Origin: Parcubacteria group bacterium Gr01-1014_8 | Lineage (GTDB): Bacteria; Patescibacteriota; Minisyncoccia; Phycocordibacterales; UBA2100 | Direction: 5' to 3' | DNA: 64,000 nucleotides | Assembly: GCA_007376385.1 (NCBI GenBank) | Contig: VMGC01000001.1 | Coordinates: 64,001 to 128,000, forward strand | In this document: piece after piece, positions 8,776 through 63,437 of the stretch | Numbering within the stretch: the stretch's first letter is position 1 | How the letters are laid out: each line of letters opens with the position of its first letter | Notes under the pieces: generated by a model | Databases searched by the model: none | The model's input: the letters and a program-made list of their open reading frames with translations, nothing else | Told to the model about the DNA's origin: nothing | Made by a program: the position numbers and the translations under genes

Positions 8776-9636
8776 TTATGCGCTTAAGGTGCTGTCTATG
8801 TAGCGGAACAATTCTTTCATTGTTTTTGCAACCTTTTCATCTTCGATCAGTACTGCGAGAGGATGTTCTTTCGCAAAAGACGCTATAAGGATCTTATTTT
8901 CGTAGATGGCAAGTTCTATATCGAAATCGAACCCGGGCGGCAAGACCTTAGTCAAGCGGAAATCTTTAGAATCGCGTGCCTTTATCCAATGAGGCTCATT
9001 CTTACTGGCTGTTGCAATGTCGAGAAATTCAACTCCGGCTTTTTTTCGGCGAGCGATATAGTATTCTATCCAATCCATATCGATGGATTTCTCACTCAAC
9101 ACTGTATCCGTCCCGGTAAAACCGTATATAACCTTTGATGAATTGTTACGAATCGTATCTTCATATGCCTGTTTCAGCCCTTCCACGCCGTCAAAGTATT
9201 GGATCGCGGGATAGGCTTTGCCACCTGTTTTTCTGACTTGTTCGATTACCGGAACAATGTCCCGCACCCGCTCGATATCAGACGAAAGTCTTTCTCTTGA
9301 TCGCTCAATATAGTCCACAAGGAGGTGCGGCTGGATGGATCGATAAGTTAGGATTCCTCCATCCTCAACTGAAGAAACAAGCCCACGTTTTGAAAGTGTT
9401 TTTAGTATTCCATACAGGGTAGTACGGTTCACTTTCGTATTCTTCGAGATAGTTGAAATTCTCTCTGCACGTCCACTCTCCAACAAGTACGTAAAGACCT
9501 GCCCTTCAGAAGCAGAAAGTCCCAGGTGTTCTAGAACTTCGTTTAGATTGTGTTGCATAAGCCTTGGAGCATGCATACTGTTGTCGGAATTTAACAACAA
9601 AATTACCACAAAACATTGACTCTTGTCAAGCGCCAC
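8776..9636 (-). CDS. TrmB-family transcriptional regulator (HTH + C-terminal effector domain)
   Basis: 286 aa; N-terminal winged HTH (GLSASEGQVFTYLLESG ... ISKNTKVNRTTLYGILKTLSKRGLV) as in archaeal/bacterial TrmB sugar regulators. Confidence 0.68.
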   Translation of the reverse strand: MALDKSQCFVVILLLNSDNSMHAPRLMQHNLNEVLEHLGLSASEGQVFTYLLESGRAERISTISKNTKVNRTTLYGILKTLSKRGLVSSVEDGGILTYRSIQPHLLVDYIERSRERLSSDIERVRDIVPVIEQVRKTGGKAYPAIQYFDGVEGLKQAYEDTIRNNSSKVIYGFTGTDTVLSEKSIDMDWIEYYIARRKKAGVEFLDIATASKNEPHWIKARDSKDFRLTKVLPPGFDFDIELAIYENKILIASFAKEHPLAVLIEDEKVAKTMKELFRYIDSTLSA

Positions 9637-61021: not shown

Positions 61022-62044
61022 CTAGATGCTTCGGATGCCAAGTAACTGTTTCTGGGGGACTTCAAACCCCAGATGTTGATGGCCTTTTTCGGTAACCATA
61101 CGTCCTCGCGGGGTGCGTTCAAGGAGGCCAAGTTGCATAAGGTACGGTTCGTGCACTTCTTCGAGCGTTGCTTCTTCTTCAGAAAGTGCTGCAGCGAGAG
61201 TTTTTAAGCCCGCTGGTCCACCTTTAAATTTTTCCACGAGGACAGTAAGAAGGTCGCGGTCTGTCTGATTGAGTCCTATTTCATCTATCTCAAGAAGCGC
61301 GAGTGCCTTTTTTACTGTTTTCAAATTAAGCGGTTCGCCGGATACTTCTGCGAAATCGCGCGCTCGTTTCAAAAGGTAGTTCGCGGTGCGAGGCGTCGCG
61401 CGGCTTCGTTTCGCAATTTCTTGTATCGAATCATCGTCGGTAGCAATACCGAGAATTTTTGCTGAGCGTTTAAGGATGGTCCGGATCTCGTCCTCGGTGT
61501 AGTAGGTAAGTCTGAACGTGCCGCCGGAAAAGCGCGAGCGTAGCGGTGCCGAGAGCATAGAGACGCGCGTTGTTGCTGCGATAAGCGTGAACGCCGGGAG
61601 CTCCAATTGTACGGTGCGAGCGGATGGACCTTTGCCGATGACGATGTCGAGAACGCCAGCTTCCATGGCAGGGTACAGAACCTCTTCAATAGTGCGATTC
61701 AAGCGGTGGACCTCGTCTATAAAAAGAACATCGCCGGGGGAGAGGTTCGTGAGGATGGATGCAAGGTCGCCAACGCGCTCGATAGCAGGGCCGGAAGTCG
61801 CGCGCAGGGATGCTCCAATTTCCCGTGTCATCAAATGGGCGAGCGTTGTCTTGCCCAAACCGGGCGGTCCGTATAAAAGCACGTGTTCCGGCTGTTGTTT
61901 TCGTCCTTTTGCGGCAGTAAGGAGGATGCGAAGGTTCTCTTTAATGCCTGCTTGGCCGACGTATTCCTTCCAATCGGCGGGTCGAAGCGCATGATCGAGC
62001 GTTTTAGCACTTCGTTCAATTGGGTTTGTTTCTTTTGTGGTCAT
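61022..62044 (-). CDS. ruvB: Holliday junction branch-migration ATPase RuvB
   Basis: 340 aa; Walker A GPPGLGKTTLA, Walker B FIDEVHRL, sensor 2; RuvB_N/AAA/RuvB_C architecture. Confidence 0.95.
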   Translation of the reverse strand: MTTKETNPIERSAKTLDHALRPADWKEYVGQAGIKENLRILLTAAKGRKQQPEHVLLYGPPGLGKTTLAHLMTREIGASLRATSGPAIERVGDLASILTNLSPGDVLFIDEVHRLNRTIEEVLYPAMEAGVLDIVIGKGPSARTVQLELPAFTLIAATTRVSMLSAPLRSRFSGGTFRLTYYTEDEIRTILKRSAKILGIATDDDSIQEIAKRSRATPRTANYLLKRARDFAEVSGEPLNLKTVKKALALLEIDEIGLNQTDRDLLTVLVEKFKGGPAGLKTLAAALSEEEATLEEVHEPYLMQLGLLERTPRGRMVTEKGHQHLGFEVPQKQLLGIRSI

Positions 62045-62086
62045 ATTTCAAGCCCTTAATGGTGAGCTCCAAGCTCATGAAAGGGG

Positions 62087-62113
62087 TTGACAAAGCTATA
62101 TTTTATGCTAAAG
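62087..62113 (+). promoter_or_regulatory. Sigma70-like promoter (TTGACA -35; extended -10 TGcTAAAGT)
   Basis: Perfect TTGACA at 62087-62092, 15-nt spacer, TG-n-TAAAGT at 62105-62113; it points into a 330-bp non-coding interval. Confidence 0.45.
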
Positions 62114-62119
62114 TCCTGG

Positions 62120-62416
62120 CTGCTTAAATTGTACGCGCGGAGGCGCGAATTTCGCAGCGATATAGGACTTTGCCGAGGATGTAGGCGGTTCCCAGTCTTA
62201 CGATTGGGAGTGCTACCTCTCCCCTTAGGTTCGGATCCACTTTTGATGCATTTCGAAAGCATCGCTGCGAAATTCGCGCTTTCGCGTTTCGCTCCACTTC
62301 CAAACATATCACCTCGTTCCCACTTCACAACTTGCCCGTCACACGAAAAGACACGGTTGCCTACTATGTCAATGTTGTGTGCTAAACATATTCGGTAGAT
62401 CCAATTTTTTTGTTTT
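62120..62416 (+). ncRNA. Candidate structured ncRNA of unknown class
   Basis: Downstream of the promoter: GC hairpin cgcgc-ggag-gcgcg (62134-62147), then an 18-bp perfect long-range inverted repeat cgcgaatttcgcagcgat (62144-62161) / atcgctgcgaaattcgcg (62261-62278) enclosing about 99 nt, and a T-tract at 62404-62416. The ORFs in this interval do not look like coding sequence. Confidence 0.3.
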
Positions 62417-62576
62417 GCTAATATTTTGCAACATGCAGAGAATATCTTTTCGTGTGTGCGGGCTTGCCAAACGGCATTTTTGTTCGTTATTGGTGACGTA
62501 GAGTGAGTGAAATGAAAATGTAGCCGTTTTCATTTCCGAGCCGAGGAGTCAAAATAGATTGTCCTAACGGCAATCT

Positions 62577-63437
62577 TTATAGAGATATTGAAATAATGCC
62601 GACCACAACACATCCAAGCGCAGCCACTTTTAAATAGACATGATGCTCTTTGAAGTAGATCGAGCCGGAGCAAATAGCCCAGAACACAGAAAGAGCGCGT
62701 TTGGCGGCTGTTGCGACGGACGCCGGCATGTAGAGAATGGCAAAACTGAACATGCCGTTGGCTATCGCCCCCGTCGCAAATTGCGCTAATTGAGCAGGGT
62801 GAAATATTCGGTGCAGCGGCCGCTCTCTCTTCATGGTTGCCATTGTAAAAAAGAAGACAACCAACACAAACAGTATGATGCCCTGTTCTGCTTCGACCGA
62901 GTTGTAGTATGTGATGTCGTATTTATAGAGTGAGATGGTGACGACGGCATTCAGCGCGGTGAAAAGAACGAGGAGAGAGCCTCTTTTTTTTATGCCATGA
63001 TACCCAAAAAGGAGGGCGAGCGAGGCGACGATGGCAACGGTGCCAAGTATCTGCGCGCTGGTCATCGCGTACCCGAGCACAAGGTCAGCGACAAGGAGGA
63101 GCGGGATCGTTAGAACGCGGAGGAATGCAAATGTGCTTCGGTCTGCTCGAATGACGGCAAAAAGAGTGACGTATGATTGCGCCACTTCCAAAATGACGCG
63201 CGGAATGAGCGTTGGAAGGGACGCGAGAGAGAACACAAATCCTCCGGGGAAATGCGGCGCAAAATAATTGAGAGGAAGATACAATCCAATGATGAGGATA
63301 CCAATAAGTCCCGCGAGCGTTGAGGTGAAGCCTGTTGTGAACGGCCTCTCCAAGCGCTTGGCGATGGTGTACTTGCCGACAGAGCTTCCGAGCTCTTCGG
63401 CGAACGTCGCGATCGCAACGAGGAAAGCTCCGAACAT
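62577..63437 (-). CDS. Polytopic membrane protein (about 8-10 TM; possibly DMT/EamA-like transporter)
   Basis: 286 aa, hydrophobic throughout; family call is tentative. Confidence 0.45.
   Translation of the reverse strand: MFGAFLVAIATFAEELGSSVGKYTIAKRLERPFTTGFTSTLAGLIGILIIGLYLPLNYFAPHFPGGFVFSLASLPTLIPRVILEVAQSYVTLFAVIRADRSTFAFLRVLTIPLLLVADLVLGYAMTSAQILGTVAIVASLALLFGYHGIKKRGSLLVLFTALNAVVTISLYKYDITYYNSVEAEQGIILFVLVVFFFTMATMKRERPLHRIFHPAQLAQFATGAIANGMFSFAILYMPASVATAAKRALSVFWAICSGSIYFKEHHVYLKVAALGCVVVGIISISL

What the first reader, a model, noticed from the sequence alone, without database searches (positions are those of the whole stretch)
62087..62416. Promoter-driven candidate structured ncRNA in a 530-bp gene-free interval upstream of ruvB
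A consensus -35 (TTGACA) with an extended -10 (TGcTAAAGT) points into a region whose ORFs are clearly non-protein-like. The predicted transcript starts near 62120. It contains a GC tetraloop hairpin (cgcgc ggag gcgcg) and an 18-bp perfect inverted repeat (62144-62161 with 62261-62278) that would close an approximately 135-nt domain. It ends near a T-tract (62404-62416), giving about 300 nt. I compared it by eye with RNase P RNA (P4 GGAAAGUCCGG, ACAGAACCCGGCUUA), tmRNA ends and the SRP domain IV motif, and none match convincingly. The class is unknown; a MITE-like element with 18-bp terminal inverted repeats is an alternative.
Basis: seen in the sequence. Interest (0 to 1): 0.5.

Follow-up and report, generated by a model that had tools for sequence, protein, structure and literature searches.

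The report
New structured small RNA beside ruvB
The gene-free stretch next to the DNA-repair gene ruvB encodes a tightly folded small RNA, absent from the RNA-family catalogue, that sits at the same spot in many ultra-small (CPR/Patescibacteria) bacteria; its job is still unknown.

Summary
The boundaries and details change.

- **What is there:** A near-consensus promoter with an extended -10 (62087-62114, + strand) drives an RNA whose ends pair in a 27-bp helix (62135-62161 with 62261-62287). This helix closes a three-way junction.
- **Conservation:** Homologues lie at the same place, divergent from ruvB, in every close relative examined and in more distant Paceibacteria-type CPR genomes. That is 27 distinct sequences in two clades.
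- **Covariation:** Helices covary in both clades: 20 of 43 and 21 of 36 pairs change on both sides, and 91-93% of cells are paired against 37-52% in slid controls.
- **Strand:** G·U pairs outnumber A·C by 4-8 fold, which puts the RNA on the window's + strand.
- **Independent test:** A model built without the window's clade finds the window element at E = 7.6e-9.
- **MITE rejected:** It is single-copy and syntenic.
- **No known family:** Rfam 15 gives no credible match for four diverse members.
- **Corrections:** The conserved unit is about 155-175 nt, not 300. The T-tract at 62404-62416 is not conserved.

Function is unknown. My best guess is a stable, trans-acting, protein-binding RNA. A 6S-like role and local control of ruvB remain open.

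The parts
62087..62092 (+). -35 hexamer TTGACA of the sRNA promoter
   Evidence: TTGAC[AT] is present at the equivalent position in 21 of 21 orthologous loci (alignments).
62106..62114 (+). Extended -10, TGcTAAAGT
   Evidence: TG present, 16-nt spacer. TGnTAnnnT is conserved in 21 of 21 loci.
62121..62134 (+). Inferred transcription start (about 62121, +/-2) and short 5' leader CUGCUUAAAUUGUA
   Evidence: Inferred from the usual 6-8 nt between a -10 element and the start site. There are no transcript data. The leader is 14 nt here and 45-75 nt in other clades.
62135..62161 (+). P1, 5' strand of the 27-bp closing helix
   Evidence: 13 of 16 modelled P1 pairs change on both sides in the window clade, and 14 of 21 in the broad clade.
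62165..62169 (+). P2, 5' strand (GGACU), pairing with 62233-62238
   Evidence: Relatives have GUGAC/GUCGC or GUAAC/GUUGC. 3 of 5 pairs change on both sides. This is the weakest helix in the window's own subclade.
62172..62178 (+). P3, 5' strand GCCGAGG; part of the invariant block UUUnCCrAGGAyG
   Evidence: It pairs with CCUUaGGU and has conserved G·U pairs and a bulged A62227.
62183..62218 (+). P4, the apical hairpin of the long arm (loop UUAC, 62198-62201); variable in length
   Evidence: Its length varies from about 17 to about 36 nt among relatives, and pairs are kept through compensatory changes.
62223..62230 (+). P3, 3' strand CCUUaGGU
   Evidence: CCUyMGGU is conserved in all 13 window-clade sequences.
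62233..62238 (+). P2, 3' strand (GGaUCC)
62240..62259 (+). P5, a small 3'-side hairpin (CUUUUGA / UCGAAAG) next to P1
   Evidence: The CUUU/AAAG stem is conserved in both clades. 3 of 4 pairs change on both sides in the broad clade.
62261..62287 (+). P1, 3' strand
62288..62295 (+). Short U-rich tail (UUCGCUCC; with U62287, the last P1 base, it reads UUUCGC); possible 3' end
   Evidence: Conservation in the nearest relatives decays about 15 nt past P1. In the broad clade P1 is followed directly by a U-tract. Inferred; not shown for the window.
62296..62416 (+). Poorly conserved downstream stretch up to the T-tract; possibly a 3' tail of the primary transcript
   Evidence: Only short blocks (AUAUCACC, CACAACUUGCCC) are shared with L092, L094 and L096. 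No terminator-like hairpin was found. Whether it belongs to the RNA is uncertain.
61022..62044 (-). ruvB, the invariably linked, divergently oriented neighbour
   Evidence: RuvB_N, E = 3.4e-69. Linked to the RNA in every locus that holds it.

Best explanation
This is a stand-alone gene for a previously uncatalogued structured small RNA of about 155-175 nt. It is conserved at one genomic position in Paceibacteria-type CPR (Patescibacteria) bacteria, between a pilB-like ATPase gene and ruvB, on the strand opposite to both.

**Shown.** A near-consensus sigma-70-type promoter with an extended -10 fires away from ruvB. The two ends of the transcript pair in a 20-27 bp helix (P1). P1 closes a three-way junction made of a long irregular arm (P2-P3-P4) and a small hairpin (P5). 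In most relatives a U-tract follows P1 directly, so P1 would also act as the intrinsic terminator. The helices covary. The invariant nucleotides cluster in four places:
- the junction-proximal end of P1;
- the UUU/CCG internal loop;
- the G·U- and bulged-A-containing helix GCCGAGGA/UCCUUaGGU;
- the AGGAyG loop.

**Inferred.** The clamp-like P1 makes the RNA stable. The conserved irregular helix surfaces form a protein-contact site. The RNA therefore most probably acts in trans as a protein-binding decoy or scaffold RNA, not by base pairing with mRNAs. Among known paradigms the nearest is 6S RNA, which sequesters RNA polymerase. Membership of that family is not supported.
For: - **Promoter:** present in the window and in 21 of 21 orthologous loci.
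- **Homologues at the syntenic site:** found by nhmmer, by CM R1 and by CM R2.
- **Independent detection:** R2 was built only from the other clade. It finds the window element at 38 bits, E = 7.6e-9.
- **Covariation, window clade (13 distinct sequences):** 91.2% of cells are paired against 37-48% when partners are slid. 20 of 43 pairs change on both sides. In P1 the count is 13 of 16.
- **Covariation, broad clade (14 distinct sequences):** 92.9% are paired against 40-52% slid. 21 of 36 pairs change on both sides.
- **Strand:** G·U/U·G cells number 55-56 against 7-14 A·C/C·A cells. CM scores are 112 against 28 bits (R1) and 38 against 16 bits (R2) for the + and - strands. Fold energies are -83.7 against -67.9 kcal/mol.
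- **Terminator:** U-tracts directly follow P1 in L004, L005, L006, L009 and L010. The sister subclade has covarying terminator hairpins.
- **Copy number:** single copy and always beside ruvB.
- **Not protein-coding:** the ORFs over the element have no Pfam match, and the homologues differ by indels that are not multiples of three.
Against: - There is no transcript evidence of any kind. The start site, 3' end and abundance are all inferred.
- No protein partner was identified, so the trans-acting protein-binding role is inference from the conservation pattern only.
- The covariation alignments were fitted to the models, and the sequences are related. The shuffle controls therefore overstate significance. 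The slid controls and the independent-model hit are the stronger evidence.
- The invariant linkage to ruvB could instead point to a local role. In many relatives the RNA's -35 element overlaps the ruvB start codon.
- A nearly perfect helix of 20-27 bp should be an RNase III substrate, so the mature form may differ from the primary fold.
Confidence: 0.6

Rival explanations
1. It is the 6S RNA analogue of these CPR lineages. It would bind the sigma-70-type RNA polymerase holoenzyme as an open-promoter mimic. P1 would play the downstream duplex, the weakly paired junction strands the bubble, and the P3-P4 arm the upstream duplex. Release would come through synthesis of a product RNA.
For: - The size (155-175 nt) and the strong housekeeping-type promoter fit.
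- The layout is closing helix, then 13- and 15-nt junction strands, then an apical arm with a small hairpin on the 3' side.
- The E. coli 6S control, folded the same way, also gives a multibranch junction with a 3' hairpin. A 3'-bubble hairpin is described for B. subtilis 6S-1 (PMC8876501).
- No canonical 6S was found in the 64-kb window. This is weak evidence, because the window is only a small part of the genome.
Against: - No match to Rfam 6S or any related model at E <= 10 in four diverse members.
- P1 is an almost uninterrupted helix of 20-27 bp. The arms of 6S are described as non-continuous, with loops and bulges (PMC8876501).
- In the window clade the junction strands pair with each other (P2 and P3a, with 3 covarying pairs). 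Only about 3 nt are left free on the 5' side. Mean unpaired probability there is 0.25-0.5.
- The broad clade has an extra hairpin in the would-be template path.
Confidence: 0.2
2. It is chiefly a local regulator of ruvB. A strong promoter placed back-to-back or face-to-face with the ruvB start controls ruvB by promoter occlusion, polymerase collision or 5'-end antisense pairing. On this view the RNA body matters mainly as a stable terminator.
For: - The RNA gene stays next to ruvB in every locus that holds it, including after an EamA-like gene was inserted on its other side.
- In L005, L006, L008, L010, L011, L023 and L097-L115 the -35 TTGACAT is the reverse complement of ruvB's ATGTCAA start.
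- In 7 loci a ruvB-sense extended -10 lies inside the RNA's 5' leader, which predicts about 25 nt of 5' overlap.
- The pilB-ruvB gap of about 250 nt is filled entirely by the RNA gene.
Against: - Promoter interference needs no conserved three-way junction, no invariant internal loops and no covariation across about 150 nt.
- In the window and its clade the promoter lies 42-75 nt from the ruvB ATG, and no ruvB-sense promoter is seen in the leader.
- The folded body lies opposite no ORF.
Confidence: 0.15
3. The functional strand is the - strand. On this view the structure is a 5' leader or intercistronic element of the pilB-ruvB mRNA, for example a processing site or attenuator.
For: - It lies upstream of ruvB in the sense orientation.
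- The reverse complement also folds better than shuffled sequence (-67.9 kcal/mol, z = -5.0).
- Both models give weak reverse-strand hits (28 and 16 bits).
Against: - The G·U excess (55-56 cells against 7-14 A·C) would become mismatches on the - strand.
- CM scores are 3-4 fold lower on that strand.
- The conserved promoter and the U-tracts or terminators all point in the + direction.
Confidence: 0.03
4. It is a MITE-like mobile element, or another DNA-level inverted repeat (cruciform or protein-binding palindrome).
For: There is a 26-nt terminal inverted repeat about 100 bp apart.
Against: - One copy in 64 kb.
- All 9 true metagenome matches, and all loci retrieved through RuvB, carry it at the same syntenic site.
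- The arms covary to keep pairing instead of keeping their sequence.
- The G·U asymmetry is specific to one strand.
- No flanking direct repeat is visible.
- No copies in viral contigs, plasmids or phages.
Confidence: 0.01

Closest known systems
6S RNA (ssrS; Rfam RF00013)
   Same: - It is a stand-alone sRNA of about 150-200 nt with a strong housekeeping-type promoter.
- Its 5' and 3' ends form a long closing helix.
- It has an apical arm and a small hairpin on the 3' side of the central region.
- It is conserved through structure more than through sequence.
   Different: - No covariance-model match.
- The closing helix is nearly perfect rather than interrupted.
- The central strands pair with each other, with covariation, instead of forming an open bubble.
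- The linked neighbour is ruvB, not the usual 6S neighbours.
- RNA polymerase binding and product RNA synthesis are untested.
Orphan structured bacterial RNAs known only from comparative genomics (for example raiA, OLE, ROOL and the motifs of Weinberg et al. 2017, PMC5737381)
   Same: - It was defined by covariation and a conserved genomic context.
- It is independently transcribed.
- No biochemical function is known.
- It is restricted to particular lineages.
   Different: - It has no sequence or structure relation to any of them (Rfam searches).
- It is confined, as far as sampled, to Paceibacteria-type CPR bacteria.
- PMC5737381 mentions neither ruvB nor CPR lineages.
Bacterial Y RNAs (for example YrlA, partners of Rsr/Ro60)
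   Same: A long helix formed by the two RNA ends closes a structured module. The RNA is a protein-binding non-coding RNA encoded as a stand-alone gene.
   Different: - No Rfam match.
- No Rsr/TROVE gene among the called neighbours.
- No tRNA-like module (ARAGORN finds none).
Divergent or overlapping promoter pairs and 5'-overlapping antisense RNAs
   Same: In many relatives the sRNA promoter overlaps the ruvB start codon. In some, a ruvB promoter lies inside the sRNA leader.
   Different: Antisense or interference RNAs normally lack a conserved, covarying tertiary-type fold. In the window clade no overlap is predicted.

Membership tests
6S RNA (RF00013) | Scores against the family covariance model | tested here: not met
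   No 6S hit at the gathering threshold in the window. No 6S hit at E <= 10 in the window element, L006, L008 or L001.
6S RNA (RF00013) | RNA of about 150-200 nt with a closing stem formed by the 5'/3' ends plus an apical stem | tested here: met
   The core is 153 nt (62135-62287), or about 155-175 nt with the inferred ends. It has P1 plus the P2-P4 arm.
6S RNA (RF00013) | Large, largely unpaired central bubble (PMC8876501) | tested here: inconclusive
   The junction strands are 13 and 15 nt, but they pair as P2/P3a, with 3 covarying pairs. Mean unpaired probability is 0.25-0.5. The E. coli 6S control also folds into a multibranch junction in the MFE structure, so thermodynamic folding alone does not discriminate.
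6S RNA (RF00013) | Helical arms interrupted by internal loops and bulges (PMC8876501) | tested here: not met
   P1 is 27 uninterrupted base pairs in the window. It is 18-27 bp with at most one or two small bulges in relatives.
6S RNA (RF00013) | Binds the primary-sigma RNA polymerase holoenzyme and templates product RNA | not testable with these tools
   This needs biochemistry or small-RNA sequencing.
MITE / mobile inverted-repeat element | Multiple dispersed copies per genome | tested here: not met
   One copy in the 64-kb window. All homologues lie at one syntenic site. Whole genomes could not be scanned.
MITE / mobile inverted-repeat element | Terminal inverted repeats conserved in sequence and flanked by a target-site duplication | tested here: not met
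   The arms covary instead of keeping their sequence. No direct repeat flanks 62135 and 62287.
Riboswitch / cis-regulatory 5' leader | Lies upstream of a co-oriented ORF whose expression it controls | tested here: not met
   There is no + strand gene downstream. The next genes are on the - strand and convergent. P1 is too long and stable to act as a switch helix.
tRNA / tmRNA / RNase P RNA / SRP RNA | Detected by ARAGORN or by the Rfam models | tested here: not met
   ARAGORN finds only 4 tRNAs, all elsewhere. Rfam gives no match.
Cis-antisense RNA | Transcript overlaps an opposite-strand transcript | tested here: inconclusive
   In L006-like loci, face-to-face promoters predict about 25 nt of 5' overlap. 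No such signal is seen in the window clade. There are no transcript data.

The most novel reading that the evidence does not exclude
The RNA is a Patescibacteria-specific housekeeping RNA with a function not yet described for any RNA class. For example, it could be the RNA subunit or decoy of a conserved protein complex in these minimal, host-dependent cells. Its near-perfect two-turn closing helix and its G·U/bulged-A helix would then be specific protein or RNase III recognition sites. Its fixed pairing with ruvB would reflect coupled expression with recombination or DNA-uptake functions.
Probability: 0.3. Interest if true: 0.8.

Novelty: new variant of a known kind. Interest (0 to 1): 0.6.

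Why it matters
CPR/Patescibacteria make up a large share of bacterial diversity. Their genomes are tiny, and almost nothing is known about their non-coding RNAs. I found no paper in the searchable library that links 6S RNA or structured sRNAs with these lineages.

This RNA is covariation-supported and promoter-driven. It has kept its fold and its position across a class-level span of such streamlined genomes, so it is likely to do something important.

- If it is a 6S analogue, it extends that regulator to the CPR in an unusual closed form.
- If it is not, it is a new orphan RNA class with a clear route to experiments.
- The arrangement in which its promoter sits on the ruvB start codon is also an unusual case of gene coupling.

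Tried and rejected
- **Rfam:** I searched at the gathering threshold on the whole window. I also searched at E <= 10 on the element and on three diverse homologues. Only chance-level hits to eukaryotic lncRNA, snoRNA or viral frameshift models appeared.
- **ARAGORN:** no tRNA or tmRNA here.
- **By-eye leads dropped:**
  - A T-loop-like GGUUCGGAUCC occurs only in the window's subclade, with just 2 flanking pairs.
  - A hammerhead-like UGAUG...GAAA is absent in relatives.
  - SRP-like AGGUCCG gets no model support.
  - An SD/anti-SD-like P3 has no ORF following it.
- **MITE:** rejected on copy number, synteny and covariation.
- **Mobile or viral origin:**
  - The window-clade pattern has 0 hits in viral contigs.
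  - A looser broad-clade pattern gave more than 120 hits, about what chance predicts. Of these, 80 were retrieved and none passed the model.
  - blastn against plasmids and phages gave no match.
- **Chance matches:** two metagenome pattern hits (L084, L090) fall inside a protein-coding region (I read it as hemB) and are chance matches.
- **The T-tract as 3' end:** it is not conserved.
- **Protein-coding reading:** there are no Pfam hits, and the indels break the reading frame.
- **A conserved ruvB promoter inside the window's RNA gene:** none found.

Full report
**1. The observation**

The interval 62045-62576 has no credible ORF. It is flanked by ruvB (61022-62044, - strand; RuvB_N E = 3.4e-69) and a 286-aa EamA-like ORF (62577-63437, - strand).

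- **Promoter.** TTGACA, then 16 nt, then TG-c-TAAAGT at 62087-62114 is a 10/12 consensus match with the TG extension. In one sequence this is only mildly unusual: the pattern occurs twice in 64 kb against 0.45 expected.
- **Inverted repeat.** It is larger than reported. It is a perfect 19-mer, with 0.07 expected by chance, inside a 26-nt, 92% complementary repeat.
- **Fold.** As RNA on the + strand it forms a 27-bp helix, 62135-62161 with 62261-62287. The + strand folds at -83.7 kcal/mol (z = -7.5). The - strand folds at -67.9 (z = -5.0).
- **'GC tetraloop hairpin'.** This is the outer part of the 5' strand of that helix.
- **T-tract.** It exists at 62404-62416, but no terminator-like hairpin precedes it.

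**2. Where the window comes from, and the homologues**

RuvB places the window in the Patescibacteria, near Candidatus Kaiserbacteria. It is 79-81% identical to L001-L003 and up to 92% identical to metagenomic proteins.

- nhmmer found the element upstream of ruvB, on the opposite strand, in L003 and L002. A motif search added L001.
- A degenerate pattern of the conserved blocks found 11 metagenome stretches. Nine are true copies, all directly beside ruvB in divergent orientation. Two are chance matches inside a protein-coding region that I read as hemB.
- Loci retrieved through the closest RuvB proteins (L092-L096) carry near-identical copies. L094, a Kaiserbacteria MAG, has the same gene order as the window: pilB-like, EamA-like, RNA, ruvB.

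**3. A wider family**

I read the ruvB-upstream regions of more distant CPR loci: Zambryskibacteria, Sungbacteria, Paceibacterota and 'Minisyncoccia' (RuvB 57-70% identical). They have the same layout:
- a strong promoter;
- a long closing helix with the conserved sequence AAAUCUCUAAGCAAU / AUUGyUUAGAGAUUU;
- an arm with AAGGACGU ... UAUCCU;
- a 3' hairpin CUUU/AAAG;
- in many, a U-tract right after the closing helix.

Model R2 was built only from ten of these sequences. With filters off, it finds the window element on the + strand at 38 bits, E = 7.6e-9. It also finds the window's relatives at E = 6e-8 to 4e-5. Weak hits in L041 and L015 are again at the syntenic site. There are no hits in the Firmicutes, Chloroflexi or other non-CPR ruvB loci, nor in L013, L021, L029 or L068. 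In a heavily sampled Paceibacterota group the pilB-ruvB gap is only about 250 nt, and the RNA gene fills it on the opposite strand.

**4. Structure and covariation**

Helix coordinates in the window:

| Helix | 5' strand | 3' strand | Notes |
|---|---|---|---|
| P1 | 62135-62161 | 62261-62287 | 27 bp |
| P2 | 62165-62169 | 62233-62238 | |
| P3 | 62172-62178 | 62223-62230 | bulged A62227 |
| P4 | 62183-62197 | 62202-62218 | apical hairpin, loop UUAC |
| P5 | 62240-62246 | 62253-62259 | small hairpin |

Covariation counts:

| Measure | Window clade (13 distinct sequences) | Broad clade (14 distinct sequences) |
|---|---|---|
| Cells forming standard pairs | 91.2% | 92.9% |
| Same measure with partners slid | 37-48% | 40-52% |
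| Pairs changed on both sides | 20 of 43 | 21 of 36 |
| P1 pairs changed on both sides | 13 of 16 | 14 of 21 |
| P2 pairs changed on both sides | 3 of 5 | not modelled |

- G·U/U·G cells outnumber A·C/C·A cells, 55 to 14 in the window clade and 56 to 7 in the broad clade. Together with the CM scores (112 against 28 bits; 38 against 16 bits) this fixes the functional strand as the window's + strand.
- The alignments are fitted to the models and the sequences are related, so the shuffle counts are not probabilities. The slid controls and the cross-clade detection carry the argument.
- The invariant nucleotides are UUUnCCrAGGAyG, CCUymGGU, ACUUU, AAAGCAUyGC and the junction-proximal end of P1.

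**5. Ends of the RNA**

All 21 loci examined have TTGAC[AT], about 17 nt, then TGnTAnnnT. The inferred start in the window is about 62121.

- Among the nearest relatives, conservation runs from the promoter to about 15 nt past P1 and then decays. The T-tract is not shared.
- In the broad clade, P1 plus a U-tract looks like the terminator.
- The sister subclade (L001, L003, L087, L089, L091) has a separate 3' tail. It holds an ACGAUAGCACC box and a covarying terminator hairpin.
- The conserved unit is therefore about 155-175 nt. The window's true 3' end is unknown.

**6. What it is not**

- **Rfam.** Rfam 15 gives only four tRNAs in the window at the gathering threshold. At E <= 10 it gives nothing credible for the element or for three diverse homologues.
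- **ARAGORN.** It finds nothing here.
- **MITE.** The element is single-copy, syntenic and covarying, and it lacks flanking duplications.
- **Mobile or viral DNA.** It is absent from the viral, plasmid and phage collections.
- **Protein.** The ORFs over it have no Pfam match, and homologues differ by frame-breaking indels.
- **Riboswitch.** No co-oriented gene follows it.

**7. How it probably works**

*Shown:* this is a conserved, structured, single-copy RNA gene. It has its own strong promoter and, in most relatives, a built-in terminator.

*Inferred:* the clamp-like P1 gives stability. The conserved irregular helices (G·U pairs, a bulged A, the UUU/CCG loop, the AGGAyG loop) look like a protein-recognition surface. 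A trans-acting protein-binding RNA is therefore the most likely reading. I put about 0.9 on the gene-and-fold part and about 0.6 on the whole statement.

*6S RNA as the nearest paradigm.* The size, the promoter, the closing helix, the apical arm and the 3'-side hairpin all fit. The junction strands of 13 and 15 nt also fit. The E. coli 6S control folds into a similar multibranch layout. Three things count against it:
- no 6S model match;
- P1 is nearly perfect, whereas 6S arms are interrupted (PMC8876501);
- the junction strands pair with covariation and leave about 3 free nucleotides.

I rate a 6S-like role at about 0.2 and do not file the RNA as a member of that family.

*A local role at ruvB (about 0.15).* This is suggested by the unbroken linkage to ruvB. 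In many relatives the -35 TTGACAT is the reverse complement of the ruvB start ATGTCAA. In seven loci a ruvB-sense extended -10 lies inside the RNA leader. This does not explain the conserved fold, and it is not seen in the window's own clade.

**8. Novelty**

No paper in the searchable library connects 6S RNA or structured sRNAs with CPR lineages. The 224-motif survey mentions neither ruvB nor these phyla. On this evidence it is a new RNA family. I rate it as a new variant of the known kind 'orphan structured bacterial sRNA', with a real chance of being a new functional class.

Noticed in passing
L005, L006, L008, L010, L011, L023, L097, L107, L111, L115 (ruvB start region; e.g. L097:1201-1207): The sRNA promoter's -35 element TTGACAT is the exact reverse complement of ruvB's start, ATGTCAA. 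The sRNA promoter therefore sits on the ruvB start codon. In the window the two are 42 nt apart.
   Followed up: partly
L004:2924, L006:2896, L009:1588, L097:1133, L107:1145, L111:1145, L115:1145: A ruvB-sense extended -10 (TGCTATAAT, TGCTATACT and similar) lies inside the sRNA's 5' leader. This predicts face-to-face promoters and about 25 nt of complementary 5' ends. It is not seen in the window clade.
   Followed up: partly
L001, L003, L087, L089, L091: 12-55 nt downstream of P1 on the RNA strand: The sister subclade has a conserved box ACGAUAGCACC, followed by a covarying terminator hairpin and UUUUGUGG. Its primary transcript would therefore be about 100 nt longer than the core.
   Followed up: partly
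L002, tail region about 2560-2735 (RNA strand), compared with L081: L002 and L081 share the same RNA. L002 has an extra segment of about 125 nt in the 3' tail, bounded by GTTAGAAATTGC and GTCAGAAATTGC. It looks like a small insertion or duplication.
   Followed up: no
window 62340-62351 / 62445-62456 and 62453-62475: There is a perfect 12-nt inverted repeat (CACACGAAAAGA / TCTTTTCGTGTG) 93 nt apart. The block GTGTGCGGGCTTGCCAAACGGC is shared with L096, where it lies just downstream of the pilB-like gene. It may be a leftover of the ancestral pilB 3' region or a terminator.
   Followed up: no
window 62577-63437 (-): A 286-aa EamA-like membrane protein gene (Pfam 22.8 bits, below the cutoff) lies between the pilB-like gene and the RNA. 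This is so only in the window and in L094/L095. In the other relatives pilB is directly convergent with the RNA.
   Followed up: partly
window 9600-9629 (-): This is the only other TTGAC-N13-16-TGnTAnnnT promoter match in the window. It lies in front of a protein-coding ORF (8776-9636, -), whose true start is probably the ATG near 9575.
   Followed up: partly
L084:2249-2325, L090:431-507: Two metagenome hits to the 25-base-equivalent degenerate pattern are chance matches at the 3' end of a protein-coding region and just beyond its stop codon. The reading (...ILTYFAKD...) looks like hemB/porphobilinogen synthase. This is a reminder that pattern scans need confirmation with a model.
   Followed up: yes
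L239 (E. coli ssrS, NC_000913.3:3055983-3056165): The minimum-free-energy fold of genuine 6S RNA shows a multibranch junction with small hairpins where the 'central bubble' is usually drawn. MFE topology alone therefore cannot decide whether an RNA is 6S-like.
   Followed up: yes
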